From: a virus
Lineage: Duplodnaviria; Caudoviricetes
Reading direction: 5' to 3' (one strand)
Length of the DNA: 64,000 bases
Virus record (IMG/VR): IMGVR_UViG_3300045015_000053
Shown: one piece after another, positions 149 through 54,729 of the stretch
Position numbering within the stretch: the stretch's first letter is position 1
Layout of the letters: the number at the start of each line of letters is the position of its first letter
The notes under the pieces: model-generated
The model's input: the letters and a program-made list of their open reading frames with translations, nothing else
The model's database searches: none
Told to the model about the DNA's origin: nothing
Program-made: the position numbers and the translations under genes

Positions 149-1768
149 ATGGCTTCTCGATTCATGGCCGGTATGCCACTGCTGATGGGCGACAACACGG
201 TTCCAGGCGCACCGATGCCGAAGGAACTGAAGGAACTGATTCCGACCATCTTCAAGGTATGCACGGAGTTCGGCCTCGACTACTACCCGACCGTCGTCCA
301 ACTCCTCACCTACGACGAGGTGAGCGAGATCGCGGCCTACGGCGGGTTCCCCGTCCGCTACCCCCACTGGCAGTGGGGCATGGAGTACGAAGAACTCCAA
401 CGCGGCTACGAGTACGGGATGCACAAGATCTACGAGATGGTGATCAACAGCAACCCGTGCTACCTGTACTGTCTGCACAGCAACACGCTGGTGGACAACA
501 TCACGGTGATCGCGCACGCCCTCGGCCACTGCCACTTCTTCAAGAACAACGTGTTCTTCGAGCCGACGCAGAGGTTCGCGCGTGACTACAACATGATCAA
601 CGAACTCGCGAACCACGGCAACCGGGTTCGCGAGTACATGGGTCGTTGGGGCAAAGAAAAGGTCACCGAGTTCATCGACCACATCCTCCGCATCGACTCG
701 CTCATCGACCCCGCCTCGGCGTGGGACGAGAAAGAGTCGAAGGACGTGGTCGTTCGCGACACCCGCAAGTACCAGCAACCGCGTCGGCTCAAAGTCGATC
801 AGGGTCGCCGGCACATGGAAGACTGGATCAACCCGCGTGAGTGGAAGGAACGCGAGAAGAAGCGGATCACCAAGAACGAGGCGTCCGAAGACCTCGGTCT
901 GTTCGGGGGGCCGCTGAAGGACATCATGGGGTTCCTCCGGGTCAACGCCCCGCTCCGTCCGTGGCAGGCCGACATCTTCAGCATGCTCTACGAGGAAGCC
1001 CTGTACTTCTCTCCGCAGGGCAAGACGAAGATGATCAACGAGGGCTTCGCGTCGTGGGTGGACTTCAACATCATGGCGCGAATGGGGTACATCGGCCTCG
1101 GCCAGAGTCATCACTCGGCCGGCATCATCGAGTACGCCGACCACAAGATGGGCGTACTCGGCGGTCACTACTCGCTCAACCCGTACAAGCTCGGCTTCAG
1201 CATCCTGCTCGACATCGAGGAGCGGTGGGACAAGGGCCAGTTCGGGAAAGAGTGGGACGAGTGTAAAGACCTGAAGAAGAAAGAGGCGTGGGACACGAAG
1301 GCCATGCTCGGCAAGCAGAAGGTGTTCGAGGTCTGCCGCAACTACGACGACCCGACCCTGATCGCCGAGTTCTTCACCGAAGACCTCTGCCGCAAGATGG
1401 AGTTCTTCACATGGAAGCATTACCCGAACGGCGACACGAAGTACGAGAGCAACGACTACCCGGCGATCAAGGCCAAGCTGATGCGGCGGTTCATCAACCG
1501 TGGTCTGCCCGACCTGAAACTGGTCGAGCCGAACTATCGCGGACGCGGGTATCTGCTGCTCGAAGACTTCAGCGAACCGGGCCACACGCTGTACGACCCG
1601 TACCTGCGAGAAGTGCTGACTTCGATCCGCTACCTGTGGAACAACGACGTGGTCGTCGTGACTAAGAACAAGGACGGCGCGGAGATCGTCTACCACTGCC
1701 ACGGGTCCGACGCCGACAAGGGCGTGTCGGTCAAGTCGCGTGAAGCGTACCTGAAGGACGGATACTAA
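149..1768 (+). CDS. spoVR: SpoVR/YcgB family protein
   Basis: Motifs GFPVRYPHWQWG, KIYEMVIN, AHALGHCHFFKNN, TKMINEGFAS, LNPYKLG. Confidence 0.9.
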   Translation: MASRFMAGMPLLMGDNTVPGAPMPKELKELIPTIFKVCTEFGLDYYPTVVQLLTYDEVSEIAAYGGFPVRYPHWQWGMEYEELQRGYEYGMHKIYEMVINSNPCYLYCLHSNTLVDNITVIAHALGHCHFFKNNVFFEPTQRFARDYNMINELANHGNRVREYMGRWGKEKVTEFIDHILRIDSLIDPASAWDEKESKDVVVRDTRKYQQPRRLKVDQGRRHMEDWINPREWKEREKKRITKNEASEDLGLFGGPLKDIMGFLRVNAPLRPWQADIFSMLYEEALYFSPQGKTKMINEGFASWVDFNIMARMGYIGLGQSHHSAGIIEYADHKMGVLGGHYSLNPYKLGFSILLDIEERWDKGQFGKEWDECKDLKKKEAWDTKAMLGKQKVFEVCRNYDDPTLIAEFFTEDLCRKMEFFTWKHYPNGDTKYESNDYPAIKAKLMRRFINRGLPDLKLVEPNYRGRGYLLLEDFSEPGHTLYDPYLREVLTSIRYLWNNDVVVVTKNKDGAEIVYHCHGSDADKGVSVKSREAYLKDGY

Positions 1769-23006: not shown

Positions 23007-23801
23007 ATGGGATGCTCGAACTCTAATATGTCGGTCAACGCCACGTTTCCGACCGTCGATACAAACACCTGCCCCGACCGTCTCGGATGTCCTCCGGGCG
23101 TTTGCCCCGATTTCACAATCCGCCGTCACGACACCAAGCCGCCCTTCAAGGTACATGTCGAAGACTGCGACGGCGCTTTGGATCTGCAAGACAAGGTCGT
23201 TGAGTTCAGCATGTGGGCGAAGGCCAAGCTGAAGACCGACATCACCACTTCCGACTTCACCCTCTCTTTTGCCGACCGCATCGGATTCGATCAGGTACTC
23301 GAAGGCGACATCTTGATCTTCGACCGCGCTCGCGGCCCGGAACACATGAAGGTGATCGGGTTCGATGAGGACAACTACATCGTCATCGTCCAGCGGGCCG
23401 TTAACGGCTCGTCACCCTCGAATTGGAAGAAGGGGACCGTCATCAGGATCATGAAGGAGATGAGTGCGCCCGCCTCGTCCGAACTGATCCTCCAAGACAT
23501 CGTCAACAAGGACGGTACGACGGACAAAGACCAGTTGACCGACAGTTTCCTCGTCTACGAGTGGCAGCCGAGGGACACCTGCCTGCCGGGGTGCTACTGG
23601 GCCGAGTTCAAACTACTTTCTTTGAAGTTGATGGAAACAGACCCAGGTGGGGACGAAGACGACACTACTATAACGATGACGATTTCTCCTTCCGACGCCG
23701 GATGCAAATTGGGCGAGGGGGTAGAATGGGTTAGACGTTTCCCGGTCAGCGGTGAAGGTTATCTGATTAAGGTGTTCGATAGTCCCACCGCAGAACTATA
23801 A
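23007..23801 (+). CDS. virion protein with BppU N-terminal-like domain
   Basis: FTIRRHDTKPPF..HVED..GALDL....VEFSM and GCYWAEFKL; TAGATA 22995-23000 upstream. Confidence 0.55.
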   Translation: MGCSNSNMSVNATFPTVDTNTCPDRLGCPPGVCPDFTIRRHDTKPPFKVHVEDCDGALDLQDKVVEFSMWAKAKLKTDITTSDFTLSFADRIGFDQVLEGDILIFDRARGPEHMKVIGFDEDNYIVIVQRAVNGSSPSNWKKGTVIRIMKEMSAPASSELILQDIVNKDGTTDKDQLTDSFLVYEWQPRDTCLPGCYWAEFKLLSLKLMETDPGGDEDDTTITMTISPSDAGCKLGEGVEWVRRFPVSGEGYLIKVFDSPTAEL

Positions 23802-23813: not shown

Positions 23814-25469
23814 ATGCCGACGACAGCGGAGTTTCAGGTCGAGCGTCTCGAAAACGCCGGCATCAAACACGTTTTCACAGTGCCGGGCGATTTCTGCTTG
23901 GGCTTGTGCGATGCGATCTCCAAGAGCAAGATCAAGCTCGTCAACTGTGCCGATGAAGCGTCGGCCGGTTTCGCCGCAGACGCCTACGCACGGGTTCACG
24001 GCATCGGGTGTGTGCTTACGACCTACAACGTCGGCACCCTGAAGTTGTGCAACGCCATCGCCGGGGCATACGCCGAGCGGTCGCCGGTCATCGTGTTGGC
24101 GGGTGCGCCGGGCATGAACGAGCGGCACGAGGACTTCAAGCTGCACCACATGGTTCGCGGCTTCAACATGCAACAGAAGATCTTCAAGGAACTGACGTGT
24201 GCGTCCGTCGTACTTGACGACCCCGTCAGAGCCGCCTTCAAGGTCGATGAAGCGATGGAAGAGATGTACTGGCACCGCCAGCCCATCTACATCGAGATCC
24301 CCCGCGACGTGGCGAACATGCGGGTGAAGTACGACGTGTACCAGCAGGGTACGCCGAAGTCCCAGACGAACAACCAGCCCGCGATGAAAGAGGCGATGTC
24401 CGAAGCCGTCTCGATGCTGCGGGACGCCAAGCGGCCGGTCATCTTTGCCGGCGTGCAGCTACAGCGGTTCGGACTCGGCAAACAGATGCTGCGGTTCGCG
24501 GAAAAGAACAACCTGCCGTTCGTTACGACACCCCTCAGCAAATCGCTGGTGGACGAGCGACACGACCTGTTCCTCGGCGTTTACGCCGGGATGAGTACCG
24601 AGTCGCGGGTGAAGCAGTACGTCGATCAGAGCGATTGCGTGTTGATCTTGGGGGAGATGTTGACCGACATCACTCTGGGGTTCCAGAAGGCACAGTTCAA
24701 GACGGAGAACAGCATCTTCGTGACGGCGGAAGGGTTGGCGATCTGCAACCACAACTATCGCGGAGTTCGGTTCACCGACTTCTGTGCGGAACTGTTCAAG
24801 GTGACATCCGTGAATCACGACCACCCGGTCATTGAGGTGCCGGGCAAGCCGGCTTACAAGCCCGAACCGGAAAAGAAACTGACGGTGCAGCGGTTTTTCG
24901 ACAAGGTCGAGTCGGTTTTGAACGAAGAGACGGTGGTGTGCGCCGACATCGGGGAGAGCCTGTTCGGTTCGATGCACATGAACATGAACGGCGGGGAGTT
25001 CATCTGCCAAGCGTTCTACACCAGCATGGGCTTCGCGATCCCCGCCGCCTTGAGCGTCGGGTTGTCGAAGCCGGCAATGCGTCCGCTGGTTCTGGTCGGC
25101 GACGGTGCGTTCCAGATGTCCGTGGCCGAATTGGGGACCATCGTCAAACAAGGTTTGAATCCCATCGTGTTCGTGCTGAACAACAGCGGGTACGGAACCG
25201 AGCGTCTGCTTTTGGACGGCCCCTTCAACGACATTCCGGCGTGGGAATACCACAAAGTAGTTGAAGTGTTCGGCGGCGTCGGGTATAAAGTGCAGACCGA
25301 AGGCGAGTTGGAAGAGGCCGTCAAAGCCGCTCTCCAAAACAAGAAATTGACTGTGATCAACGTTGTAGTTGATCCCAAAGACACGTCTTGGTCCCTCAAA
25401 CGTGCAACCGAGGGCTTCAAGGCAAACCGCTTCCTAGAAGAAGCGAACAACACGAACGGAAGGAAATAA
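23814..25469 (+). CDS. ThDP-dependent 2-oxoacid decarboxylase (pyruvate/indolepyruvate decarboxylase family)
   Basis: VPGDF, ADEASAGFAADAYAR, LHH, GDGAFQMS...NN.GYGTE. Confidence 0.92.
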   Translation: MPTTAEFQVERLENAGIKHVFTVPGDFCLGLCDAISKSKIKLVNCADEASAGFAADAYARVHGIGCVLTTYNVGTLKLCNAIAGAYAERSPVIVLAGAPGMNERHEDFKLHHMVRGFNMQQKIFKELTCASVVLDDPVRAAFKVDEAMEEMYWHRQPIYIEIPRDVANMRVKYDVYQQGTPKSQTNNQPAMKEAMSEAVSMLRDAKRPVIFAGVQLQRFGLGKQMLRFAEKNNLPFVTTPLSKSLVDERHDLFLGVYAGMSTESRVKQYVDQSDCVLILGEMLTDITLGFQKAQFKTENSIFVTAEGLAICNHNYRGVRFTDFCAELFKVTSVNHDHPVIEVPGKPAYKPEPEKKLTVQRFFDKVESVLNEETVVCADIGESLFGSMHMNMNGGEFICQAFYTSMGFAIPAALSVGLSKPAMRPLVLVGDGAFQMSVAELGTIVKQGLNPIVFVLNNSGYGTERLLLDGPFNDIPAWEYHKVVEVFGGVGYKVQTEGELEEAVKAALQNKKLTVINVVVDPKDTSWSLKRATEGFKANRFLEEANNTNGRK

Positions 25470-26083
25470 TGCACAACAACTCGAACCCTGCTCAGGGCAA
25501 CCAGCAACAACCGTACCGGCCGCAGCCACAGGGCAACCGCCCGTGGCAGAAACGCGACGACCGGCCACCTGAGAAGGGCAGGCACCGCATCAACCTGAAC
25601 ATTCGTGTTCCAGAGGTGCGGGTTGTGCAGGACGGCAAGCAACTCGGCGTCATGCGGACGAGCGAAGCGATGGCCCTCGCGACGGAAGCGGGGCTGGATC
25701 TGGTCGAGATCGCGCCGCAGGGTCGTCCACCCGTCTGTTCGATCATGGACTACGGACAGTTCAAGTACCAAGAGAAGATCAAACAAAAAGAAAACGACAA
25801 GAAGCAGCGGGAAGCTTCGCACCAACTCAAGGAAATTCGTCTATCCCCGACCATCGGCGATAACGACATCGCCGTCAAGGTCAAGCAGGCGAAGGGCTTC
25901 TTGGCCGAGGGCAAGAAGGTTCAGGTGGTGGTCGTTTTCCAGCGGCGTCAACTCAGTCACAAGGACATGGGGTTCGAGGTCGCGAAGAAGTTCATCGACG
26001 CCCTCGGCGAAGAGGTGACTGTCGAGGCGCAACCGAAACTCGAAGGCAACAAGCTCACCTGCCGAGTTGCCGCGAAGCCGTAA
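25469..26083 (+). CDS. infC: translation initiation factor IF3
   Basis: RINLNIRVPEVRVV, GLDLVEIAP...PPVCSIMDYGQFKY, LKEIRLSPTIGDND...K.KQA..FL..G.KV. Confidence 0.95.
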   Translation: MHNNSNPAQGNQQQPYRPQPQGNRPWQKRDDRPPEKGRHRINLNIRVPEVRVVQDGKQLGVMRTSEAMALATEAGLDLVEIAPQGRPPVCSIMDYGQFKYQEKIKQKENDKKQREASHQLKEIRLSPTIGDNDIAVKVKQAKGFLAEGKKVQVVVVFQRRQLSHKDMGFEVAKKFIDALGEEVTVEAQPKLEGNKLTCRVAAKP

Positions 26084-26086
26084 AAC

Positions 26087-27256
26087 ATGGTTCCAGACGC
26101 CAAAGAGTTCAACCGGGCGGTCATCGACCGCCTGAAGGGTTCCGGCCCGCCCGTCACCTCGTGTGGCGAGTGGTACGCCGACTTCGTAGCACTGCCGGAA
26201 GACGTGGTCGAAACGGTCTTCGGCACCGCCGGGGTCAACCTGCAATACTTCCTCGGCCAGATGGACCTGAAACACCCCGATCTGCGGGACAACGTCGAAG
26301 AACGGATCTTCAACTCTCATTCGTCTACAACATTCGGCTCAATGGTCGGGCTGGTCAAACTAGCCATCGATTCCAACAAAAAAGAACTGCTGCCGGCCCT
26401 CTCGCAAGTCGATTTCATCCCCCGCGATTTGTACGAACAGGCCGACACCGAAAGACACATCAGGTGCCTGAAGGATGCAGTCACCCGCCAAGAGTATCGC
26501 AAAAACAAGAAATCTCAGGCCGTTGACACCGCGACGTTCTCGCGGCGCGGCGAAGAGATCTGGAACATGCAGCCCGCGTCGTTCGTTTCTCTGATGCGGT
26601 ACGAGAAGGCTTACGACGAAGAGGTCAAGGCGGCGAAGCACCGTGCGAAGAGGTTCCGCGACCTCGGCTGTGTCGCGATGGCCGGCGAGGTCATGAAGTC
26701 GGTCGAATTGTTCGAGTCGCAACTTTCCGACTCGTATCTCGGCTTCAACCGGCTTACCTTCAACTCCGCGTTGGTGATCCTCGCCAAGTGGCACAAGTAC
26801 GACTTCACCGCGCCGTACATTCTGTCGGCTTGGCCCACCGAGCGGAACTACAGGATCTTGGTTCCCGCCCGTTACTTCGCCGACTACGATTTCTTCGAGA
26901 AGTCCGAAGAACAGGCGATGTGCTGGAACTACAGCCCACGGATCTACCCGCTCGCGGATCTGGAACCGTTGACGCCCGACATGAAAGAAATCATCGGGCT
27001 GTGCGAGGAACACCCGCAGTACGGCAACCGGCCGCTGTTCGATCACTATGTCGTGATGTTGCCGGGCGTAGATTATCCGTCGTTTCGCGAGAAGTCATAC
27101 ACGTTCCGAAGCGACACCGGCTCTTTGACGAGCTTCGATGACTACAACAAAGCTCGGCACTCTCTCGACCGCACGCTCTTGCACGCCGGCGCGTTCAGCG
27201 GGGTCGTGATGGGCGAACGCGACGGCAAATGCTACTTCATCTCAGTTTGGAGTTAG
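26087..27256 (+). CDS. hypothetical protein
   Basis: 389-aa ORF in operon. Confidence 0.7.
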   Translation: MVPDAKEFNRAVIDRLKGSGPPVTSCGEWYADFVALPEDVVETVFGTAGVNLQYFLGQMDLKHPDLRDNVEERIFNSHSSTTFGSMVGLVKLAIDSNKKELLPALSQVDFIPRDLYEQADTERHIRCLKDAVTRQEYRKNKKSQAVDTATFSRRGEEIWNMQPASFVSLMRYEKAYDEEVKAAKHRAKRFRDLGCVAMAGEVMKSVELFESQLSDSYLGFNRLTFNSALVILAKWHKYDFTAPYILSAWPTERNYRILVPARYFADYDFFEKSEEQAMCWNYSPRIYPLADLEPLTPDMKEIIGLCEEHPQYGNRPLFDHYVVMLPGVDYPSFREKSYTFRSDTGSLTSFDDYNKARHSLDRTLLHAGAFSGVVMGERDGKCYFISVWS

Positions 27257-27259
27257 ATC

Positions 27260-27595
27260 ATGAATCTCATCGTTACCGAAAAGGCGTTGAAGGAACTGCG
27301 GCACATCATGGCCGATCAAAACTTCGACGCCAACGTCACCTACGCCCGCCTCACCATCCTCGGCGGCGGATGTTCCGGGTTCCAGCACAAGTTCCACCTT
27401 GATGAGAACTTCAATGAGAAGACCGACATCCTTGTGGAGATCGATGGGCTGAAGTTCGTGACGGACAAGAGGTCGGCTCTGTACCTCGACGGCACCACGG
27501 TCGATTTCCTCGAAGATTTGAACAAGAGGGGTTTCAAAATGAGCAATCCCTCGATAAAGTCAACCTGTGGATGCGGTTCGAGTTTTTCAATGTGA
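27260..27595 (+). CDS. HesB/IscA A-type Fe-S carrier
   Basis: GGGCSGF, YLDGTTVDF, NPSIKSTCGCGSSF. Confidence 0.92.
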   Translation: MNLIVTEKALKELRHIMADQNFDANVTYARLTILGGGCSGFQHKFHLDENFNEKTDILVEIDGLKFVTDKRSALYLDGTTVDFLEDLNKRGFKMSNPSIKSTCGCGSSFSM

Positions 27596-27614
27596 ATCAT
27601 TTCTGGAGATCCAG

Positions 27615-29072
27615 ATGAAGAATTTCATCGACGGCAACTGGACCGATCCGAAGAACGGGGAATCGCTCTCCAAGTTCGACCCCTGTACCGGGAAGGAAGC
27701 CTACAAGGTTCCCAACTCGACGCGAGAAGATGTCGAAGCGGCCGTCTACGCGGCGAAAGCCCGTCAACCCGCTTGGCGGGCGAAGGGCAGGGTTCGTCGG
27801 GCCGAAGTCCTGTCGGACGTGGTCGCCGCCCTGAAGAACAACGTCGATTTGTTCACGAAGCTCATCAGTCTGGAAACCGGCAAGCACCAGAACGAGGCGA
27901 AGGCCGAAGTCCTCGAAAGCCTACACATGCTCGAATACACGGTCGCGCAAGGGCGGGCCGAGTGCGGGCAGTGGCTTCCGTCCGAACTGCCGGAACGCGA
28001 CATCGCGATCATCAGGAAGCCGAAGGGTGTGGTGGGCATCATCAGCCCGTGGAATTTCCCGATGGCAATCGGGGGTTTCTGGTGTGCGGCTCCCGCGTTG
28101 CTCGAAGGTAACGCGGTGGTCTGGAAGCCGAGTGAGAACACGGCACTCGTTGCCGAAGCCGTAGTCAAGATGTACGCGGAGGCGGGTCTTCCGCCCGGTC
28201 TACTCAACCTCGTCCACGGTGGAGGTGTGACCGGCGCGGATCTGGTGAAGGAAGATGTGGACCACATCTGCTTCACCGGCTCACGGGACGTGGGCCAATA
28301 CATCCGCCGCGTGTGCGCTGAAACGTGGGGCAAAACCTGCTCGCTGGAGACTGGGAGCAAGTCTGCCGTCATCGTATTCTCGGACGCCGACGTTGACTTC
28401 GCGGTCAACGCTTGCATTCCAAGCGCATTCAAGACAACCGGCCAGCGGTGCGTTTCCGCTGGCCGGTTGCTCGTACAACGTGATCGGTGGGGCAGTTTCG
28501 TAGACGCCTTCGTCGCCGCCGCCCGAAAGATCACATGGGGCAACCCGTTCCAAGAGAACGCACCGTACTACGGCCCGCTCATCACCGAAAAACAGATGCA
28601 CCGCGTCCTGCGGTACAACCAGATGACCCTGAAGCACGCCCTGCTCGAAGGCAAGTGCGAGGAGATGGACGGCGGCTACTACATGTCGCCGCACATTTAC
28701 AAAGCCGAATGGGACAATCTGGCTCTCGCCGTGCCGCTCCGCGAAGAGGTCTTCGGCCCACACGTCGCCATCATCCCGTTCGACACGGTGGACGAAGCCA
28801 TCAACATCTACAACGACACGCCCTACGGCTTGTCGTTGGGGGTGATTACCCCGGACGCCGTTAAAGCCCGGCAATGTCGTGAAGGGTGCGAGTACGGGAT
28901 GGCCTACTGGAACAACGGGTGTGTCGGTGCGGAGAGCCACGTTCCGTTCGGAGGCGTCAAGGCGAGCGGCTACGGCGGCGCGAGTGCGGCCGGGACGTTC
29001 GACACCACCTCCCACAAAGTTGCGTGGAGCAGCAACTACGGAGAAATCGGGTTCCCGCAAGGTCTGAAGTAA
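27615..29072 (+). CDS. NAD(P)-dependent aldehyde dehydrogenase
   Basis: IISPWNFP, WKPSE, FTGS, LETGSKS (Glu), GQRCVS (Cys), EEVFGP. Confidence 0.93.
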   Translation: MKNFIDGNWTDPKNGESLSKFDPCTGKEAYKVPNSTREDVEAAVYAAKARQPAWRAKGRVRRAEVLSDVVAALKNNVDLFTKLISLETGKHQNEAKAEVLESLHMLEYTVAQGRAECGQWLPSELPERDIAIIRKPKGVVGIISPWNFPMAIGGFWCAAPALLEGNAVVWKPSENTALVAEAVVKMYAEAGLPPGLLNLVHGGGVTGADLVKEDVDHICFTGSRDVGQYIRRVCAETWGKTCSLETGSKSAVIVFSDADVDFAVNACIPSAFKTTGQRCVSAGRLLVQRDRWGSFVDAFVAAARKITWGNPFQENAPYYGPLITEKQMHRVLRYNQMTLKHALLEGKCEEMDGGYYMSPHIYKAEWDNLALAVPLREEVFGPHVAIIPFDTVDEAINIYNDTPYGLSLGVITPDAVKARQCREGCEYGMAYWNNGCVGAESHVPFGGVKASGYGGASAAGTFDTTSHKVAWSSNYGEIGFPQGLK

Positions 29073-29087: not shown

Positions 29088-29119
29088 AAGAAATCCCGGT
29101 TCGATGACCGGGATTTCTT
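29088..29119 (+). terminator. intrinsic terminator
   Basis: AAGAAATCCCGGT-6 nt-ACCGGGATTTCTT then GTTT. Confidence 0.8.
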
Positions 29120-29184: not shown

Positions 29185-29565
29185 ATGTCCAAGCACAAGC
29201 CACTGATCACTCTCGAAGGTTCCGACGTTCCGGGCCTCATTCTCGCCAACGGCGAGACGGTGACGAAGAGAATCCTCTCCGTCAACCCCTGCGGCAGTCA
29301 AGTTTTGGTAGAGCTTTTGACTTACAACGAACAGAACCCAAGTACCGTCTTGACGAGCGGCAAGTTCAACAAGGACGAAGCACGTCACGGTTGGGTCCGC
29401 AAGTTGGGGCCGAGTGTGAAGACCGCTGACTGGAACTTCAAGGCGGGCGACCGCGTCCTCATCAACGGCACCGGCACCCCGGTCCCGAAGTTCGGCGACA
29501 GCGACCGCGAGTGGGTGCTGCTTGAGCCGTACACGCTCAAGGCGGTTCTGGAGGAAGGGTACTAA
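29185..29565 (+). CDS. GroES/Cpn10-like co-chaperonin (gp31 analogue)
   Basis: NPCGSQVLVE...GWVRKLGP...FKAGDRVL...EWVLLE..LKAVLE. Confidence 0.65.
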   Translation: MSKHKPLITLEGSDVPGLILANGETVTKRILSVNPCGSQVLVELLTYNEQNPSTVLTSGKFNKDEARHGWVRKLGPSVKTADWNFKAGDRVLINGTGTPVPKFGDSDREWVLLEPYTLKAVLEEGY

Positions 29566-29577
29566 GCACGAGGTCAG

Positions 29578-30645
29578 ATGGACTACTACCAAGTCTTCGA
29601 CCTCCCCAAAACGGCAACACAGGACGAGATCACCAAAAAGTATCGCGTTCTAGCCAAGCAATATCACCCGGACAGAAATCCGGGTGACAAGGCTGCCGAA
29701 GACAAATTCAAAGAAATCAGTGCGGCATATGACGTGATCGGCGACCCGGAGAAGCGTTCCTTCTACGATGCGCACGGTCACGCACCCGGCCGACGTTCAG
29801 CACCGCCCCCGCCACGACCCAGTACCGTTCAGGCTTCGGACTTCTACAAGTCCGTGTTCAACACGTTCTTCGGCGGGGACGTGAGCGGCCGGCACGTCCA
29901 AGTCCGGCTCGAAATCGATCTCGAAGACACACTCAAAGACATCGTCAGAAACGTCACATACTCCAAACGCAAAACGTGTCCGACGTGTCGCGGGTGCGGG
30001 GCTTCTTCGTTCAAGCCGTGCGGCCACTGCCTCGGCAGCGGCCAAGTCACCAAGACCGAAAACCCGCCGTTCGTTTTCACCGGCCCGTGTCCGCACTGCC
30101 AGGGACAGGGCAAGACCGACGCCGTTAGGTGCGGGGACTGTAGCGGCAGTGGCTACAGTCTGATCAAGGACTGCAACATCGACGTGAAGATCCCGGCCGG
30201 TATCGATCAAGGCATGCAGGTCAGGGTTCGCGGCGCGGGCGAGGCCGGCTCTCCGGGCGAACCGCCCGGAGATCTGTTCGTCGTGGTGTTGATCAAGAAG
30301 CACGAGTTCTTCTCGCGAGAAGGGGCCAATCTCACCATCGAGATCCCGGTCAGTTATTCCACTTTGGTAGCCGGCGGCGAGATCCTGATCCCCACACTCG
30401 ACAAGACCTTCATGAGTGTGAAGGTTCCTCCCGGCACTCAGAACGGCACCCGGTTCCGTCTCAAAGGACGCGGGATGCCCGACATTCAGAAGCCCAAGAA
30501 CACCGGCGACATTCTCGCGTCGGTCAAGTTGGAAGTTCCGCAGGGCGTGGACGACGAGTACAAAGAACTGATCGAGAAGCTGAGAGAGGTCGAGGCCAAG
30601 AACCCGTCGCCGAGGGTGAAAGCATATTCGGATCGCGTCAAGTGA
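29578..30645 (+). CDS. dnaJ: DnaJ chaperone
   Basis: J domain HPD; four CxxCxGxG repeats; C-terminal GDL, RLKGRGMP. Confidence 0.95.
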   Translation: MDYYQVFDLPKTATQDEITKKYRVLAKQYHPDRNPGDKAAEDKFKEISAAYDVIGDPEKRSFYDAHGHAPGRRSAPPPPRPSTVQASDFYKSVFNTFFGGDVSGRHVQVRLEIDLEDTLKDIVRNVTYSKRKTCPTCRGCGASSFKPCGHCLGSGQVTKTENPPFVFTGPCPHCQGQGKTDAVRCGDCSGSGYSLIKDCNIDVKIPAGIDQGMQVRVRGAGEAGSPGEPPGDLFVVVLIKKHEFFSREGANLTIEIPVSYSTLVAGGEILIPTLDKTFMSVKVPPGTQNGTRFRLKGRGMPDIQKPKNTGDILASVKLEVPQGVDDEYKELIEKLREVEAKNPSPRVKAYSDRVK

Positions 30646-47135: not shown

Positions 47136-47230
47136 GGGGGAGTAGCTCAGAGGCCAGAGCGCAATCTAGGGAGCCGATTAAAAACCGGCAAACGTGATTG
47201 AGGTCGTTGGTTCGACTCCAACCTCCCCCA
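47136..47230 (+). ncRNA. tRNA-like RNA with 29-nt insert in place of the anticodon loop
   Basis: GGGGGAG/CTCCCCC-A acceptor, GCTC/GAGC D stem, CAATC/GATTG stem, GTTGG-TTCGACT-CCAAC T arm. Confidence 0.75.
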
Positions 47231-47635
47231 CTCGGCAGGATGTTAGTAGCGGACTACATTACACCAACACCAATGTGTCTCTACGATTTTTTGCCTGCCA
47301 CAACATGCCCCTGGTGGGGCGATCTGCCGGAATGGGCGACGGCAGACGTAACGCCAGGGGCTTCTTAAATCCAGAACGGGTCAGCGAAAAAGCACCAACG
47401 GCATGTAAGAGTGCCTACCCGTTCTGGACTCGTCTTCCGCCTTATCAGCGGAAGTGGTGGAGGCGACGGTGTCACCAACATCGCTGCCCTTCGGAGAGTA
47501 AACTCCGAGCGACTCCGGTCGCGAAACAAATCTGGTGGATCGCTGGCTACTGCCGGCCCCCGGAGTACAGTCTTCGGACGGGCTTGACCCGGAAACAAAA
47601 CTGATGTGGAGTTCCTGTAAAAAGGGGCTTCATAT

Positions 47636-47707
47636 GGGGAGCAGGTGTCAAGGGACACGTCCTGGCTAATCACCGGGAAGAGTGGGGTTCGATTCCCCGG
47701 CTCCCCT
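47636..47707 (+). tRNA. atypical tRNA, anticodon AAT (Ile-like) with C37 and 4-nt D loop
   Basis: GGGGAGC/GCTCCCC; GTGTC-AAGG-GACAC; CCTGG-CTAATCA-CCGGG; TTCGATT T loop. Confidence 0.55.
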
Positions 47708-47921
47708 CTGGCGATGGGGATATACCCCTCGCCTCTCACTCGCAACATTTTTGACCCGGTCGGGGTGCGATCCCCGTGGGTATGCAGTAGCGGGTGTACA
47801 TTCATGAAAAGCGGAGGGACGTAATGTCCGAACACTACCAGAGGGGACCGCCCCTGAGAATGTACTACCCCTATATGGCACCCATGTCCGCATACCGCAT
47901 CTGATCGCGCGGGCCGGGTGA

Positions 47922-47959
47922 CAAAAACCCCAGTGAAACCCACTGGGGTTTTTGTTTTT
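47922..47959 (+). terminator. intrinsic terminator
   Basis: CAAAAACCCCAGTG-aaacc-CACTGGGGTTTTTG then TTTTT. Confidence 0.88.
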
Positions 47960-47974
47960 CAAGATAGATACAGC

Positions 47975-48769
47975 ATGCACACCGTCTTCGCCGAGTGGCT
48001 GTTCGAGCGGACCACCGATCCCGAACGCCGCGCCAGAATCGACAAGGCTTTCAACACCCTGAAGGCGTTCATGGAAAAGGTCGTCAAAGAAGACACCTTC
48101 TCCGACTACTTCCAGACGGACGGCGACTTCTACTACTTCTTTCCCTGCGTCAAGCACCTGCCCGAAGTCTTCAAAGGGAACATGGAGTTCATCGCTCAGA
48201 AGTTCGACAAGGAAGCTCAACAAGACACGAACCCTCTGATGGGCCAGCAGATCGACTACAGCGGCGGGTTCAACTTCCTCGACCACGATCCGCCGCTGTT
48301 CACCTTCGTCTTCCAGACCGACCGCAAGACGTTCATCCAGAACTTTCCGAAGTATTGTGCCAACTGGTTGTCACAGGTTCGGCAGACCTTCAATCACGAG
48401 TACAACCACTACCTCGACTGGCTCGACTCGGACGGGAAGGCGATCCCCGCCAAGAACATCTGGAACGCCGGCGCGGGCGAGGCCCAACGGAAGAAATACT
48501 TCAACTCGACGCACGAGGTCAACTCGTTCTTCACCGACATGGTGATGGACGACTTCGAGTTCGTGCGGGGCGGGATGTTCTCGAAGATGCCGCCGGCCAA
48601 GAAACTCGCGGTGTTCGAGAAGATGTACGGCCGGGACGCTCGCGAGTACGTCGCCAAGTTCTGGACCCGCAAACAGGGCTTCTCCGAGTTCTCCACGGAA
48701 ACCCGCAAGCGGCTGTCGAAACGACTGTACGCCGCCTACCAGCAACTGAAGGCCGAAATCTCGGCTTGA
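47975..48769 (+). CDS. zincin-like HExxH protein with CTS-like N-terminus
   Basis: TAGATA 47965-47970 plus 4 nt; MHTVFAEWLFER; FNHEYNH...YFNSTHEVNSF. Confidence 0.7.
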   Translation: MHTVFAEWLFERTTDPERRARIDKAFNTLKAFMEKVVKEDTFSDYFQTDGDFYYFFPCVKHLPEVFKGNMEFIAQKFDKEAQQDTNPLMGQQIDYSGGFNFLDHDPPLFTFVFQTDRKTFIQNFPKYCANWLSQVRQTFNHEYNHYLDWLDSDGKAIPAKNIWNAGAGEAQRKKYFNSTHEVNSFFTDMVMDDFEFVRGGMFSKMPPAKKLAVFEKMYGRDAREYVAKFWTRKQGFSEFSTETRKRLSKRLYAAYQQLKAEISA

Positions 48770-48775
48770 AATGTC

Positions 48776-48792
48776 GCGCAATTTCGGAGACT
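48776..48792 (+). repeat. 17-bp intergenic direct repeat, copy 1
   Basis: GCGCAATTTCGGAGACT, identical at 50749-50765. Confidence 0.8.
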
Positions 48793-48842
48793 GTTTTCCC
48801 CGTGCTTGTTGGTAGTGTTCACACTCTACCAATGAGGGAAAC

Positions 48843-49151
48843 ATGCTGCACTACGTCACGCCGGAAATGGGCGACAAGGCTCCCGAAAGCGCCAAGACGT
48901 TCGCCAAACTCGCCCACTACGGCCGGCACTATTTCCTCGATTCCACCCTCGGCCCGGACGTGATCAAGGGCATGGGAGTCGTCTACCGTGGGCAGTACAA
49001 GGAAGACGCCAGCGACGACCCCCTCAAGATGGAACTGCGTTGCGAGAAGGGTTCCAAACTCGCGAACCACTACAGCTACAAGGTGACCATCCGGGCGTTC
49101 GAGAAACTTGGTAAAACCATCGACATCGCAGTGGACTGCCCACTGGATTAA
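48843..49151 (+). CDS. hypothetical protein
   Basis: GAGGG RBS. Confidence 0.6.
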   Translation: MLHYVTPEMGDKAPESAKTFAKLAHYGRHYFLDSTLGPDVIKGMGVVYRGQYKEDASDDPLKMELRCEKGSKLANHYSYKVTIRAFEKLGKTIDIAVDCPLD

Positions 49152-49159
49152 GGAGCAAC

Positions 49160-49573
49160 TTGTCAGAGATCGCTGTAGTTTGTACGCACTGTCAGAATCC
49201 GATGAACGTCCCGAAAACGTTCACCGGCCGGTTCGCCGAGTTCCATTGCAAGAACTGCGGCCGGTCCTTCGGTGTGACCCCGACCGACTCTCAGGTCCGC
49301 ACTCTCAGTCGCGGCGCGGAGTCGATGAGGGGGAAGGTCGCCGAGCAGATGGCTAAGGCCGGGCAAGAGATCCTCGGCCTGCCCGTTCAACTGACCCAGA
49401 TGAAAGAGGTCAAGTGGGCGGTCCAGTGCCGAGTCGAAGCTGTCACCCCCACAGGGGTCGCCATTCCGCTCGGAATTGTTCGATTTTCTGATGCGGGCAA
49501 GGTGTATTCCGAGCAATCCGGGTCTACACTGTCCGAGATCATGGACCGCGTAGACCCCAAATCCCGATGCTAA
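49160..49573 (+). CDS. zinc-ribbon hypothetical protein
   Basis: CTHC...CKNCG; AGGAG RBS with TTG start. Confidence 0.6.
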   Translation: MSEIAVVCTHCQNPMNVPKTFTGRFAEFHCKNCGRSFGVTPTDSQVRTLSRGAESMRGKVAEQMAKAGQEILGLPVQLTQMKEVKWAVQCRVEAVTPTGVAIPLGIVRFSDAGKVYSEQSGSTLSEIMDRVDPKSRC

Positions 49574-49582
49574 GGTGCTTCA

Positions 49583-50452
49583 ATGGGACGTGAAGTTCGT
49601 CGTGTGCCGGCCGATTTCAACTGGCCGCTCAAGAAGGTCTGGTCGGGCTTTCAGATGCCCGACGAACTTCACAGTCTCCCTTGCTACCACTGCGGCGGGC
49701 AGGGCGTGAACGCGGCCACCCGCGTTCTGTCCGATAGCTGGTACGATCAGGCCGGTTTCGTGATGGTGGGCTACCAGTTCGCACCGCACGTCACGGACGC
49801 AGAGATCGCCGAGATGGTCAAGAAGGCCGGTGGGCGGTGGACGTACCGTTACGGCCAAGACCGCAACGGGAACGTCGCGGAACGCCCGCCGTGGAAGGTC
49901 ATCGGCGACTATCGCGGCTGGTGTCACGACCTCACCCAAGACGAAGTTCAGCTTCTCTTCGATGAGGGTCGTTTCTACCGGCTCAAAGAAACGGGCGTCT
50001 GCCCCACCGCCGCTGAGATCAACGAGGCGTACCAGCACGGCATGGGCCACGACGCCATCAACATGTGGATCTGCGTCAAGGCCCGCGCACAACGCATGGG
50101 CATCTACGGCCACTGCACCCACTGCAACGGTGAAGGCCGACTCTGGCGGGACGAAGAACACAAGCGGTTGCACGAAGAGTGGCAAGAGACGCCCGTTCCC
50201 GAAGGTCCGGCCTACCAAATCTGGGAGACGGTCAGTGAGGGTTCGCCCGTTTCGCCGGCCTTCTTGAAACCAGAAGACCTCGCGCGGTGGATGGTGCGTA
50301 ACGACGACTCCGTCACCAGCGGCACCAGCTTCGAGGGGTGGGTCAAGTTCATCACGAAGGTCGGGTTCGCGCCGAGTGGTGTGGGCGTCGGCGGCAACAT
50401 CAAGAGCGGCGTCGAGACACTTTCCGAACGTGTCGAAGAGGACGATCAGTGA
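49583..50452 (+). CDS. phage hypothetical protein with split CxxC.G.G motifs
   Basis: MGREVRRVP; CYHCGGQG; CTHCNGEG; YQIWETVSEGSPVSPAF. Confidence 0.7.
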   Translation: MGREVRRVPADFNWPLKKVWSGFQMPDELHSLPCYHCGGQGVNAATRVLSDSWYDQAGFVMVGYQFAPHVTDAEIAEMVKKAGGRWTYRYGQDRNGNVAERPPWKVIGDYRGWCHDLTQDEVQLLFDEGRFYRLKETGVCPTAAEINEAYQHGMGHDAINMWICVKARAQRMGIYGHCTHCNGEGRLWRDEEHKRLHEEWQETPVPEGPAYQIWETVSEGSPVSPAFLKPEDLARWMVRNDDSVTSGTSFEGWVKFITKVGFAPSGVGVGGNIKSGVETLSERVEEDDQ

Positions 50453-50742
50453 AAATCTCCGTCACGCAGGCCGACATCGATCAGGCCGCGAATTGGCAAG
50501 AAGACTTGCAACGAAACCCGGTCGCGTGGGCGATTCGCCGGACGACCGGCATTCCAACCTCGGCCGGGCCGGGCGCGGCGGTGATCGACTACTGCACGCC
50601 GTGGCAGTCCGAGTGCTGGTTGCCGGACGAGATCATCGACTGGCTCGAAAACTTCAACAACGGCGAGGAGGTCGAGCCGATTGAGTTCGAGATCGATTTC
50701 GATCTGGAGGCTCACGAGACGCGGCGGGCCGGTCGGCGATAA
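50449..50742 (+). CDS. hypothetical protein
   Basis: GTGA overlap; MKISVTQADID. Confidence 0.6.
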   Translation: MKISVTQADIDQAANWQEDLQRNPVAWAIRRTTGIPTSAGPGAAVIDYCTPWQSECWLPDEIIDWLENFNNGEEVEPIEFEIDFDLEAHETRRAGRR

Positions 50743-50748
50743 ACTTCG

Positions 50749-50765
50749 GCGCAATTTCGGAGACT
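50749..50765 (+). repeat. 17-bp intergenic direct repeat, copy 2
   Basis: GCGCAATTTCGGAGACT. Confidence 0.8.
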
Positions 50766-50819
50766 CGGTCTGGGCGGTTTCTAAGTGGTGGAGACGGTTT
50801 CGCGAACGGGAGACGGGCC

Positions 50820-51131
50820 ATGACGTTCGGCGACGAAGTGATGGTGATCGAACGGCTGGTGCGGTGTGGTTCGGGAGTCAACTACAACTCCCGAACCATG
50901 TATCCGGCCTTGATCGGTAAAACCGGCGTCGTCAAGTTCTACGACGACGAGGCGTACAACACCGACTACCCGACCGGGTACGAGCGTGTGACTGTGACGG
51001 TCGAGATCGACGGGAAGGAACACGACGTGGACGGCGCACACGTCGTCAAGGTGTGTCAGGTGTGCAAGCACATGGGTTGTCGCGGCGGCGAACATACCTA
51101 CAACCAAACCTGCCTTTGCACTCGGAAGTAA
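50820..51131 (+). CDS. hypothetical protein
   Basis: GGAG RBS. Confidence 0.6.
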   Translation: MTFGDEVMVIERLVRCGSGVNYNSRTMYPALIGKTGVVKFYDDEAYNTDYPTGYERVTVTVEIDGKEHDVDGAHVVKVCQVCKHMGCRGGEHTYNQTCLCTRK

Positions 51132-51132
51132 C

Positions 51133-51363
51133 ATGAAGATCTTCTCACGCATCACCGTTTACCAGATGCTCGACGGGATGGAGAAGCGGGGTGACATCAA
51201 CGGTCGCCCCTACAACTTCTCGCTGACCGTGACCTTCTACAAGCTGAAGGCCGGGTTCAAGTGGACCCTTGATAGCGGGAACCGGGTACGAAACCTTCGC
51301 GGGCCGTTCGCGACCATCGAAGAGGCTGAAGCTGCGGCGAAAACCCAACTCGAAGCTTTCTGA
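51133..51363 (+). CDS. small hypothetical protein
   Basis: Coupled ORF. Confidence 0.55.
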   Translation: MKIFSRITVYQMLDGMEKRGDINGRPYNFSLTVTFYKLKAGFKWTLDSGNRVRNLRGPFATIEEAEAAAKTQLEAF

Positions 51364-51371
51364 GGTGTCCA

Positions 51372-52001
51372 ATGTTTGACGAAGTGACCCAAGAGTTCAT
51401 CGACAGCATGGAGTGGTCGCCGGAAACCCCGGACGACATCAAGAAGCTCGTGATCGGCAACCTCAAGGGGCTGTCGATCATGATGGAGACGCGGCACAAG
51501 CAGCGTCCCAAACTGTACCTGTTCATCGCGCGGAAGGACAGCAGCGAGGATTACTGTCGCGGCCACCGAATGGCGAGCTATAGTTCCGACTTCGAGATGA
51601 AGAACTTCCTCACCCGCGACGAACTGATCAAGTTGTGGGCCGAGTACCTTCAGAAGAACATGAACCTCGACTGCAACGAGTCGGGTTACGCCTTCGCCGT
51701 CTTCCGCGACGGAACCAAACTGTTCGATGACCATGTTACGTTCGACGGCGGCGAGCGGTTCGGCTACAACACCGACGAGTATTACGCCAACTACGAACGG
51801 CTCGAAGTCGAAGAGGCCGACTGCAACGTCGAGATGACCGAGATCTACGCTCTGGTACGCGAAGCGGCCAACAAGCTGCAAGGTGCCAAACTCACGCAGG
51901 AAGAACGCGAGAGGGCCGAGAGAGCTAACGCCGATGCTGCCGCCGCGAAGGAAAACCGCCGGTTGCAGTTCCTCCAACTTCAGAAGGAGTTCGGACAATG
52001 A
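51372..52001 (+). CDS. hypothetical protein
   Basis: GAGG RBS. Confidence 0.65.
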   Translation: MFDEVTQEFIDSMEWSPETPDDIKKLVIGNLKGLSIMMETRHKQRPKLYLFIARKDSSEDYCRGHRMASYSSDFEMKNFLTRDELIKLWAEYLQKNMNLDCNESGYAFAVFRDGTKLFDDHVTFDGGERFGYNTDEYYANYERLEVEEADCNVEMTEIYALVREAANKLQGAKLTQEERERAERANADAAAAKENRRLQFLQLQKEFGQ

Positions 52002-52441
52002 GTCGCCGTCAAAGTGCCTACGAGATGCCGCCGCCCCCACCGCCCCCGCCTCTGGTGCCGATCAGAGGACGTTTCGACGCCGGTCGCGTGCCGGACTACT
52101 ACGCCGAGCGTGGGTGGTGCGAGGAATGGGCCGGTTGGAACAAGTTGACCGTCTGCACGCAGAAGTACCTGCGTGATCTGCTGCGGCAACTGTGGGAGAA
52201 CAAGAAACATCACGGGGAAAACCCGATTGTTTCGATCCACGTCAAGAACCCGTCCGGCAAGGGCAGTCGGATTCACGAGTGCTGCCGCGTGGACGGCTGG
52301 CAGACCGGGTTCGAGGCGGAATACAACCGCGAGATCGAATACTTCTGTGTGACCGAGACGGCGCTCTGCACGGACGGCAAAGACCACCAGTTCTGGCACA
52401 AGTTCAAAATCGAGGATGTCATCTGGGTGATGGTGACGTGA
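51998..52441 (+). CDS. hypothetical protein
   Basis: ATGA overlap. Confidence 0.6.
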   Translation: MSRRQSAYEMPPPPPPPPLVPIRGRFDAGRVPDYYAERGWCEEWAGWNKLTVCTQKYLRDLLRQLWENKKHHGENPIVSIHVKNPSGKGSRIHECCRVDGWQTGFEAEYNREIEYFCVTETALCTDGKDHQFWHKFKIEDVIWVMVT

Positions 52442-52443
52442 AT

Positions 52444-52474
52444 GAGAAGGCCGGGCAAAGCGCCCGGCCTTCTC
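52444..52474. terminator. hairpin between convergent genes
   Basis: GAGAAGGCCGGGC-aaagc-GCCCGGCCTTCTC. Confidence 0.8.
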
Positions 52475-52477
52475 TCT

Positions 52478-52690
52478 TTACTGCGATCTCGCACAGTCGG
52501 GACAGATCACGAGTTCCTTCACGATCTGTTTCCCGACCCCTCCGTTGTCGATGCACTCCATGTGATCGAACTTGCCGCGTTTGAATACGGGCTTGTACCG
52601 GGCGGGGTGGACTACTTCTTGGTAAAACGTGACCTTGTGCTGCTTCACCCTCGGTTGGGTGACGTTCCTGCAATTGGAGCAGACGTACAT
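52478..52690 (-). CDS. small zinc-ribbon protein
   Basis: MYVCSNC...CPDC; start chosen at an internal ATG. Confidence 0.5.
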   Translation of the reverse strand: MYVCSNCRNVTQPRVKQHKVTFYQEVVHPARYKPVFKRGKFDHMECIDNGGVGKQIVKELVICPDCARSQ

Positions 52691-52774
52691 TGTCTCGGCC
52701 GTTTTTGGATTGCCTTCTCGACAGGCCGAAGCCGGAAGGGTAAAGTGAGGTACACCGTATTGTGGGAGTTTCAA

Positions 52775-53008
52775 ATGGAAGATATGAGCAAACTCGAAAA
52801 ATTGCTGGACGTACCGATTGTCTTCGGGCTACAAGCTCAGGGACACATCCCCACGATCCAGAAGATGCTCGCGGCCGGCGCGACGTGGAAGGAGATCGGA
52901 AACAAGATCGGCTGGTGCCAAAACACCGCCAAAGAACACTACGAACGCTACCTTCAAAGGGAGAACGGCAATGCAAAGGGAAAGACACCCGCTGCCGATG
53001 GAGTCTGA
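52775..53008 (+). CDS. small HTH-like protein
   Basis: GGGAG RBS; GATWKEIGNKIGW. Confidence 0.5.
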   Translation: MEDMSKLEKLLDVPIVFGLQAQGHIPTIQKMLAAGATWKEIGNKIGWCQNTAKEHYERYLQRENGNAKGKTPAADGV

Positions 53009-53279
53009 CGAGATGGCCGAAGCCCTCCGGGTTTCGCATTGCGACCGCAAGAGGCAGAACCACAAGTGTCAGGGCGTCGTCACCATCGCCCCCGGCCAAC
53101 TGCGGCTCGACTGCAAACTGTGCGGCGAGGATCGGCACACGCTGGACGAGACGATGGTTCTGGTGCGAGAGGCCAGAGAGATCTGTGACATCGTCGGCGT
53201 GAACTACGACGCACTGGACGCTCAGAAGAGACGTGAATTGTTGTTGGCGGTACTGGATCTGGCTCAGAACGGCCTGTGA
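52971..53279 (+). CDS. Cys-containing hypothetical protein
   Basis: GGAG RBS. Confidence 0.55.
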   Translation: MQRERHPLPMESDEMAEALRVSHCDRKRQNHKCQGVVTIAPGQLRLDCKLCGEDRHTLDETMVLVREAREICDIVGVNYDALDAQKRRELLLAVLDLAQNGL

Positions 53280-53335
53280 CGCACTCAGTCCGGCAGATTC
53301 CACATTGCTGCTTCCTCTGCCGGACTGAGGGTTGT

Positions 53336-53761: not shown

Positions 53762-53842
53762 TTTTCCTCGGTTGTTTGAACTCCTCGGTCGGCATCTACA
53801 TCTTAGTCACTTGTTTTCTTTTGGTTTGGGGTAGATACCGTT

Positions 53843-54724: not shown

Positions 54725-54729
54725 CACAA

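What the first reader, a model, noticed from the sequence alone, without database searches (positions are those of the whole stretch)
23814..29072. Phage-encoded 2-oxoacid decarboxylase plus aldehyde dehydrogenase: a two-step pathway
Seen: the ThDP enzyme retains the PDC/IPDC catalytic set (PGD Asp, HH pair, GYGTE Glu). The ALDH retains its Glu and Cys. Both lie in one apparent operon with IF3 and IscA. Known: such pairs convert pyruvate to acetate (PDH bypass), branched or aromatic keto acids to acids (Ehrlich pathway), or indolepyruvate to indole-3-acetic acid. Inference: auxiliary metabolism for NAD(P)H or acetate supply, or production of an auxin-like metabolite.
Basis: partly seen in the sequence, partly recalled or inferred. 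Interest (0 to 1): 0.6.

Follow-up and report, generated by a model that had tools for sequence, protein, structure and literature searches.

The report
Huge-phage amino-acid breakdown enzymes
A very large phage, probably of planctomycete bacteria, carries two intact metabolic enzymes side by side, but they do not look like one pathway: the aldehyde dehydrogenase belongs to a widespread phage family tied to lysine/arginine breakdown, and the keto-acid decarboxylase is a separate, long-kept phage gene.

Summary
Observation confirmed; the two-step pathway is only weakly supported. Both genes are intact, under purifying selection and viral. They lie in a 188-kb fragment of a ~500-kb T4-like phage, probably of Planctomycetota. 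Each enzyme forms its own phage-only clade.

They are not an obligate pair. The ALDH follows the decarboxylase in 13 of 25 phage loci. One complete 572-kb phage has the decarboxylase and no ALDH. Four 96-100%-complete phages have the orthologous ALDH and no ThDP enzyme.

The ALDH keeps most ALDH7/Pcd amino-acid-binding residues (E101, R278-C279, G438-A439, F148, W156, F445, C-terminal QG). In 60 of 79 other viral loci it lies beside lysine 6-dehydrogenase-like, lysine 6-aminotransferase (LAT)-like, arginine dihydrolase-like or cyclodeaminase-like genes. This phage very probably encodes a LAT elsewhere.

Best reading: an NAD+-linked amino-acid semialdehyde dehydrogenase, plus a separate decarboxylase for medium or large keto acids whose pocket lacks the pyruvate-specific Y/W/I residues. 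Substrates are inferred, not shown. The scan found the pair before on other DNA (e1-5404169; it also concluded 'not obligate'). The ALDH assignment is new here.

The parts
23028..23801 (+). Conserved phage protein of unknown function (257 aa); the constant upstream neighbour of the decarboxylase. From memory it resembles baseplate-type domains (not tested).
   Evidence: Upstream of the KDC in all phage loci; ESM Atlas clusters 96-100% viral; no Pfam, NCBIfam or PHROG hit
23814..25469 (+). ThDP-dependent 2-oxoacid decarboxylase (KDC), PDC/IPDC/KdcA fold, 551 aa, of an uncharacterised PVC-type subfamily
   Evidence: catalytic D26, E48, H111, H112, E463; pocket I286, I379, L383, F384, T462, L466
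25469..26083 (+). Translation initiation factor IF3; start overlaps the KDC stop (TAATG)
   Evidence: TIGR00168 168 bits, cut-off 60; follows the KDC within 0-1.6 kb in all phage loci; best matches in Planctomycetota
26087..27256 (+). Unknown clade-specific protein, 389 aa
   Evidence: No family hit; no usable Atlas hit; 23-51% identity in most relatives
27260..27595 (+). A-type Fe-S carrier (IscA/ErpA-like), 111 aa
   Evidence: TIGR00049 98.6 bits, cut-off 58.8; present in only part of the relatives
27615..29072 (+). Aldehyde dehydrogenase, 485 aa, of a phage-specific subfamily with ALDH7/Pcd-like substrate residues; probably an NAD+-linked amino-acid semialdehyde dehydrogenase
   Evidence: neighbours in other phages
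29088..29119 (+). Perfect 13-bp inverted repeat with a U-rich 3' arm; terminator-like end of the unit
   Evidence: -26.9 kcal/mol, z = -5.66; not listed by the consensus scan
29185..30645 (+). GroES-like gene (29185-29565) and DnaJ (29578-30645): conserved downstream context

Best explanation
The two enzymes are independently acquired auxiliary metabolic genes that share a transcription unit in a gene-insertion hot spot of a huge-phage clade. They most likely serve amino-acid breakdown in separate steps. (1) The ALDH oxidises the semialdehyde made from lysine (aminoadipate semialdehyde/P6C, by LAT or lysine 6-dehydrogenase) and/or from ornithine or proline (glutamate semialdehyde/P5C) to aminoadipate or glutamate, giving NADH. 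(2) The KDC irreversibly decarboxylates medium or large 2-oxoacids left after transamination of branched-chain, Met or aromatic amino acids; host or phage enzymes then remove the aldehyde. Net effect (inferred): host protein-derived amino acids are turned into glutamate/ammonia nitrogen and reducing power for virion production. Shown: intact catalytic residues, phage monophyly, independent presence and absence, shared substrate-channel residues, neighbourhoods. Inferred: every substrate, the cofactor, the physiology.
For: Independence: the ALDH follows the KDC in 13 of 25 phage rows. It lies 45-59 kb away in three others. It is absent from the complete 572-kb G001. No ThDP enzyme was found in four 96-100%-complete ALDH-bearing phages that carry a terminase gene, with a positive control ringing. 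Only 1 of 80 cellular KDC loci has any ALDH nearby, and that one is 31% identical. ALDH: all 43 viral sequences form one clade, support 100. E101, F148, W156, R278, C279, A439, E440, F445 are invariant in the 40 tabulated rows; Q482 and G483 are invariant in alignment A2. These align with Pcd/ALDH7, whose Glu121, Arg301, Gly461, Ala462, Phe168, Trp175 and Phe468 bind aminoadipate (PMC11362210). 60 of 79 viral ALDH loci have a LysDH-like, LAT-like, ArgZ-like or OCD-like gene within the locus, often as VOC-ALDH-dihydrolase-LAT with 12-bp gaps. In the huge clade: LAT in 6 of 17 records including the closest IMG/VR relative, ArgZ-like in 3 of 18, LysDH-like in 2 of 17, VOC in 7 of 17, all ALDH-positive, and in this genome (Fisher p = 0.017). 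This phage's exact KDC, its ALDH and a LAT each have a longest contig of 475,914 bp. KDC pocket: non-aromatic I286 at ZmPDC Y290, L383 at W392, T462 at I472; ZmPDC mutants without aromatics at 290 and 551 lose pyruvate activity (PMC13003428).
Against: The ALDH is only 30-31% identical to true Pcd and scores 257 bits against a 730 cut-off. ALDH7 Thr303 is Val280 here, and K273 is extra. Thermus ALDHTt has the same E/R/GAE set yet oxidises hexanal and benzaldehydes (PMC8699947). The LAT/LysDH-linked ALDHs form one subclade, so 60 of 79 is one lineage-level context, not 60 events. G006 (97% complete) has both enzymes but no LAT, LysDH-like, ArgZ-like or VOC gene was found; G001 has LAT without the ALDH. 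The VOC-ALDH test is confounded by fragment length and kinship. The hairpin suggests co-transcription of KDC and ALDH.
Confidence: 0.55

Rival explanations
1. Coupled Ehrlich-type oxidation: the KDC makes branched or aromatic aldehydes and this ALDH oxidises them to acids, as its main or a substantial job in this clade.
For: Same transcription unit ending in a hairpin; both kept within 8 kb in 13 of 25 loci down to about 46% identity; the nearest solved ALDH is broad-substrate (PMC8699947); most larger KDC-bearing records also carry the ALDH somewhere.
Against: Each gene occurs alone in complete or near-complete genomes. The ALDH substrate channel is the same in phages that have no KDC. Three unrelated genes sit between the two. 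Cellular homologues are unlinked.
Confidence: 0.2
2. Dicarboxylic route: the KDC decarboxylates 2-oxoglutarate or 2-oxoadipate (the lysine product downstream of the ALDH) to succinic or glutaric semialdehyde, as in the cyanobacterial KGD/SSADH bypass.
For: The best NCBIfam ALDH hit is GucD (331 bits, cut-off 770); a polar T462 lies in the pocket; KGD plus SSADH is a known pair (PMC10418658).
Against: The other pocket residues are hydrophobic, with no added Arg or Lys. The ALDH keeps the amino-group-binding Glu101. SSADH models score lower (276 bits, cut-off 646). From my own knowledge, cyanobacterial KGD belongs to the acetolactate-synthase-like branch.
Confidence: 0.1
3. Pyruvate to acetaldehyde to acetate (PDH bypass) for acetate or NAD(P)H supply.
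For: The PDC catalytic set is complete, including E463; large-pocket KDCs often also accept pyruvate (PMC13003428).
Against: Y290, W392 and I472 of ZmPDC are I, L and T here; the ALDH scores weakly against acetaldehyde dehydrogenase ExaC (234 bits, cut-off 900); KPSE with E174 suggests NAD+, not NADP+ (own knowledge); no acetate-activating gene was noticed nearby.
Confidence: 0.07
4. Indolepyruvate to indole-3-acetic acid (auxin-like metabolite).
For: The best HMM is TIGR03394 (indolepyruvate/phenylpyruvate decarboxylase); databases label homologues 'indolepyruvate decarboxylase'; an IDO-family gene lies within 10 kb upstream in five distinct relatives.
Against: Below both cut-offs (334/554.5 and 301/946); I286 stands where KdcA has a small Ser; IDO diverts tryptophan away from the indolepyruvate route and was not found in this fragment; no tryptophan aminotransferase linked.
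Confidence: 0.04
5. Cellular contamination or decaying cargo.
For: No capsid gene in the 188-kb fragment itself; many cell-like genes.
Against: Phage-only clades; synteny in complete circular phages with Gp23 and in the curated LR756511; purifying selection and matching GC3.
Confidence: 0.01

Closest known systems
KdcA/KivD of Lactococcus lactis (PDB 2vbf, 6vgs) and phenylpyruvate decarboxylase (PDB 2nxw; TIGR03394)
   Same: Three-domain ThDP fold (TM 0.87-0.89), Asp/Glu/His-His/Glu catalytic set, about 30% identity, non-aromatic residues at the pyruvate-selecting positions.
   Different: Pocket I286/I379/L383/F384/T462 against KdcA S286/Q377/F381/F382/V461; below all curated cut-offs; belongs to an uncharacterised PVC/Nitrospira subfamily (42-47% identity) and is phage-encoded.
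ALDH7 / piperideine-6-carboxylate dehydrogenase Pcd (PDB 6rtr, 4x0t; NF050084), which works with LAT in lysine catabolism
   Same: Equivalents of Glu121, Arg301-Cys302, Gly461-Ala462, Phe168, Trp175, Phe468 and a C-terminal NY...QG tail; association with LAT-like and LysDH-like genes.
   Different: 30-31% identity, 257 of 730 bits, Thr303 is Val, extra Lys273, one-residue insertion (IGGFW); a separate phage clade whose closest cellular sequences are 43-45% identical ALDHs of three Planctomycetota genomes.
Thermus thermophilus ALDHTt (PDB 6fjx, 6fku)
   Same: Best PDB sequence match by single sequence and by profile; shares the E, QRC and GAE motifs.
   Different: About 33% identity in the structural alignment; characterised only as broad-substrate (hexanal, benzaldehydes); its residues after the motif differ (T for V280, no K273).
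Huge phages of Al-Shayeb et al. 2020 (PMC7162821), e.g. LR756511 = SR-VP_PHAGE_COMPLETE_CIR-CU-CL_42_23
   Same: Same block (KDC, IF3, IscA, ALDH) in LR756511; IF3 and S21 are described in the paper; its supplements list TIGR03251 LAT and an aldehyde dehydrogenase as annotations.
   Different: The main text does not mention the decarboxylase, the ALDH or amino-acid catabolism.

Membership tests
PDC/IPDC/KdcA-type ThDP decarboxylases | TPP_N, TPP_M, TPP_C domains with the GDG...NN motif and the cofactor-activating Glu | tested here: met
   E48, G429-D430-G431, N456-N457
PDC/IPDC/KdcA-type ThDP decarboxylases | Asp, His-His and Glu catalytic set; fold | tested here: met
   D26, H111, H112, E463; TM 0.87-0.89
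Pyruvate decarboxylase (ZmPDC type) | Small pocket: Tyr290, Trp392, Ile472 | tested here: not met
   I286, L383, T462
Indolepyruvate decarboxylase TIGR03393 / TIGR03394 | Score above the curated equivalog cut-off | tested here: not met
   301/946 and 334/554.5 bits
ALDH superfamily | Catalytic Asn, Glu and Cys; Rossmann GS motif; EEVFGP | tested here: met
   N147, E245, C279, T221-G-S223, E378
ALDH7 / Pcd (NF050084) | Score above cut-off, orthology | tested here: not met
   256.7/730 bits; 30-31% identity to over-cut-off members
ALDH7 / Pcd (NF050084) | Aminoadipate-binding Glu121, Arg301, Gly461, Ala462, Phe168, Trp175, Phe468 | tested here: met
   E101, R278, G438, A439, F148, W156, F445 (PMC11362210); G438 is Ala in most other viral members
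ALDH7 / Pcd (NF050084) | Thr303 hydrogen bond to the product | tested here: not met
   Val280 in all 40 tabulated viral sequences
ALDH7 / Pcd (NF050084) | Activity on aminoadipate semialdehyde/P6C | not testable with these tools
   Needs an enzyme assay
Coupled KDC + ALDH pathway (Ehrlich oxidation, PDH bypass, IPyA route) | The two genes co-occur and are linked across genomes | tested here: not met
   13 of 25 linked; each alone in complete or near-complete genomes
Coupled KDC + ALDH pathway (Ehrlich oxidation, PDH bypass, IPyA route) | The product of the first enzyme is a good substrate of the second | not testable with these tools
   Needs an assay
Huge T4-like phage | Gp23-type capsid gene in a genome over 200 kb | tested here: inconclusive
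   Not in the 37%-complete G000; present in 4 syntenic relatives, two of them complete circular genomes

The most novel reading that the evidence does not exclude
Two distinct phage lineages (500-670-kb T4-like phages, probably of planctomycetes, and 160-180-kb phages without a T4-type capsid match) share a phage-specific semialdehyde dehydrogenase as the hub of a virus-encoded system that breaks down lysine, arginine and proline (with tryptophan and branched or aromatic arms through IDO and the KDC) to harvest nitrogen and NADH from host protein during infection.
Probability: 0.3. Interest if true: 0.7.

Novelty: new variant of a known kind. Interest (0 to 1): 0.45.

Why it matters
Catalogued phage metabolic genes mostly concern nucleotides, photosynthesis, phosphate, sulfur and one-carbon metabolism. 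I found no paper that describes a vertically inherited phage keto-acid decarboxylase, or a phage ALDH linked to lysine/arginine catabolism; the library lacks most subscription journals. If the assignment holds, large aquatic phages actively catabolise host amino acids, which bears on virocell nitrogen budgets. Both proteins also represent uncharacterised subfamilies (the PVC-type KDC with a Thr462 pocket; a 146-locus viral ALDH family) that are simple to assay. The case also shows that adjacency in a phage operon can mislead about pathways.

Tried and rejected
Single-sequence DNA-pattern scan with the KDC found nothing; the alignment did. Cellular KDC neighbourhoods gave no conserved partner. 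The nearest cellular ALDHs gave no pathway clue: nadA/larE-like neighbours in one Planctomycetota genome, hrcA-grpE-dnaJ in Acidobacteriota. Long 'fusion' hits of the ALDH profile were tandem ALDHs or unrelated. The ALDH AF2 model has a poor C-terminus (pLDDT below 50 from residue 428), so its Foldseek ranking does not discriminate subfamilies. The 389-aa gene stays unassigned (Atlas TM at most 0.31). The promoter/terminator scan was at chance level. IDO, LAT, LysDH-like, ArgZ-like and OCD-like genes were not found in the 188-kb fragment, which is 37% complete. The KDC tree is the quick IQ-TREE run and the ALDH tree is FastTree; neither has bootstraps, and I did not test a donor lineage. No complex prediction was run, since no binding is claimed. 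Two papers on ALDH7A1 and Pcd could not be fetched, so the role of the C-terminal QG tail rests on my own knowledge.
Full report
OBSERVATION. The window is G000:C1:9123-73122 of a 188,369-bp IMG/VR virus record that is 37% complete. It holds 50 tRNAs, EF-Tu, bS21, peptide deformylase, PhoH and mostly small + strand genes. The ThDP enzyme (23814-25469) has all three TPP domains, D26, E48, H111-H112, the GDG...NN motif and E463, and folds like KdcA, IPDC and PDC. The ALDH (27615-29072) has N147, E245, C279 and E378. IF3, a 389-aa unknown gene and an IscA-type gene lie between them with gaps of -1 to 19 bp, and a strong hairpin follows the ALDH stop.

VIRAL ORIGIN. The block recurs in contigs of up to 673 kb, in complete circular genomes of 511 and 572 kb with a T4-type capsid gene, and in LR756511, a curated complete 595-kb phage of Al-Shayeb et al. 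2020. All 25 phage KDC rows form one clade (SH-aLRT 100) nested among homologues mostly from Planctomycetota and Verrucomicrobiota. dN/dS against a relative is about 0.13 for the KDC and 0.18 for the ALDH, and GC3 matches other phage genes. In a 22-genome panel rich in planctomycetes, EF-Tu (68%) and IF3 (50%) match Planctomycetota best. The host is therefore likely, not proven.

ARE THEY A PAIR? The KDC's constant neighbours are an upstream phage-specific gene and IF3. The ALDH follows in only 13 of 25 rows. In three more it lies 45-59 kb away, and the complete 572-kb G001 has no ALDH at all. Conversely, the ALDH alignment finds 146 viral loci; among the 79 new top loci only 3 have a KDC nearby. 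Four genomes of 96-100% completeness, each with a terminase gene, carry the orthologous ALDH and no ThDP enzyme, while the positive control rang. Cellular KDC homologues are solo genes. The stretch between peptide deformylase and DnaJ is an insertion hot spot in which IscA, ALDH, a short UDP-glucose-dehydrogenase-like gene, IDO and homing endonucleases come and go.

WHAT THE ALDH IS. All 43 viral sequences form one clade (support 100). The closest cellular sequences are 43-45% identical ALDHs from three Planctomycetota genomes. In 60 of 79 loci the ALDH lies near a lysine-6-dehydrogenase-like gene (49; best PDB match is Pyrococcus PH1688, which I recall as a lysine dehydrogenase), a LAT-like aminotransferase (16; TIGR03251 480/521 bits), an ArgZ-like arginine dihydrolase (18) or an ornithine-cyclodeaminase-like gene (9). 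A VOC-fold gene is present in 48, usually directly upstream. These loci belong to one subclade, so they count as one context. Independent support comes from the huge clade itself, where the same genes are scattered: LAT in 6 of 17 records, ArgZ-like in 3 of 18, LysDH-like in 2 of 17 (one close to what looks by eye like a proline dehydrogenase), and VOC in 7 of 17, all ALDH-positive. This genome has the VOC gene at G000:156251-156859. Its exact KDC, its ALDH and a LAT each have a longest contig of 475,914 bp, and that LAT lies in DNA of the same GC content and sample series, syntenic with the LAT region of the closest relative. The sequence agrees: E101, F148, W156, R278-C279, G438-A439 and F445 align with the ALDH7/Pcd residues that bind aminoadipate (PMC11362210), and the C-terminal QG tail aligns with Pcd. 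It is not an ALDH7 member (257/730 bits, Thr303 replaced by Val), and the nearest solved enzyme is promiscuous (PMC8699947). So 'works like Pcd/P5C dehydrogenase' is an inference. The LysDH-like family also contains polyamine enzymes, and a HAD/AdoMet-decarboxylase gene is a frequent neighbour, so polyamine metabolism is an open variant. E174 in KPSE suggests NAD+ (own knowledge).

WHAT THE KDC IS. The pocket (I286, I379, L383, F384, T462, L466) is shared with the uncharacterised PVC subfamily, so the phage kept the donor's specificity. It lacks the Y290, W392 and I472 of pyruvate-specific ZmPDC, whose mutants without aromatics at 290 and 551 lose pyruvate activity (PMC13003428). It adds no basic residue for a second carboxylate. 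Branched-chain, methionine-derived or aromatic keto acids are the most likely substrates. The database label 'indolepyruvate decarboxylase' is below both cut-offs.

VERDICT. Most likely (0.55): two separate amino-acid catabolic genes in one transcript. Rivals: real coupling 0.2, dicarboxylic bypass 0.1, pyruvate bypass 0.07, auxin 0.04. Literature searches found no description of either phage family; LAT and ALDH appear only as annotations in the Al-Shayeb supplements. An earlier scan note on other DNA reached 'not an obligate pair, substrate unknown', and another noted an ALDH-HAD-LysDH operon. I tested both points here; the notes are not independent support. Class: new variant of a known kind; interest 0.45.

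Noticed in passing
G000:C1:156251-156859 (-), outside the window; L225:9393-9986: 202-aa VOC-fold protein (methylmalonyl-CoA epimerase/HPPD-like motifs), present in 48 of 79 viral ALDH loci, usually directly upstream of the ALDH, and found only in ALDH-positive huge phages; function unknown, best candidate for a true ALDH partner.
   Followed up: partly
L200:10001-14200, L196, L205, L211: Tightly packed VOC - ALDH - ArgZ-like dihydrolase - LAT - short UDP-glucose-dehydrogenase-like - LysDH-like cluster, often with an OCD-like gene, in ~160-kb phages: a candidate complete arginine/lysine catabolic operon.
   Followed up: partly
L010:4046-5218, L014, L020, L024, L007/L013: Indoleamine 2,3-dioxygenase-family gene (PF01231) 2.6-9 kb upstream of the KDC in five distinct huge phages.
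   Followed up: partly
L185:11697-12542; L007:14443-15312: UDP-glucose/GDP-mannose dehydrogenase-like gene of about 280-290 aa lacking the C-terminal domain, near the ALDH in 33 of 90 loci from both phage lineages.
   Followed up: no
G000:C1:5316-10890 (last gene at window 164-1768): PrkA-YeaH-SpoVR-like cellular operon carried by the phage (identified by eye from the translations).
   Followed up: no
G000:C1:153544-158993: FolD-like, PRPP-synthetase-like and ClpX-like genes around the VOC gene (identified by eye).
   Followed up: no
window 47136-64000 and beyond: Large tRNA array (50 tRNAs in the contig) with an EF-Tu gene at window 61545-62720 inside it.
   Followed up: partly
L262:2946-3752: Proline-dehydrogenase-like gene two ORFs downstream of the LysDH-like gene in a KDC- and ALDH-bearing huge phage (identified by eye).
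   Followed up: no
L009 (GCA_040384205.1, JAWVGZ010000010.1): A 586-kb contig in an NCBI genome assembly carries the same phage block and a LAT; probably a huge phage binned into a MAG, which could give a host clue.
   Followed up: no
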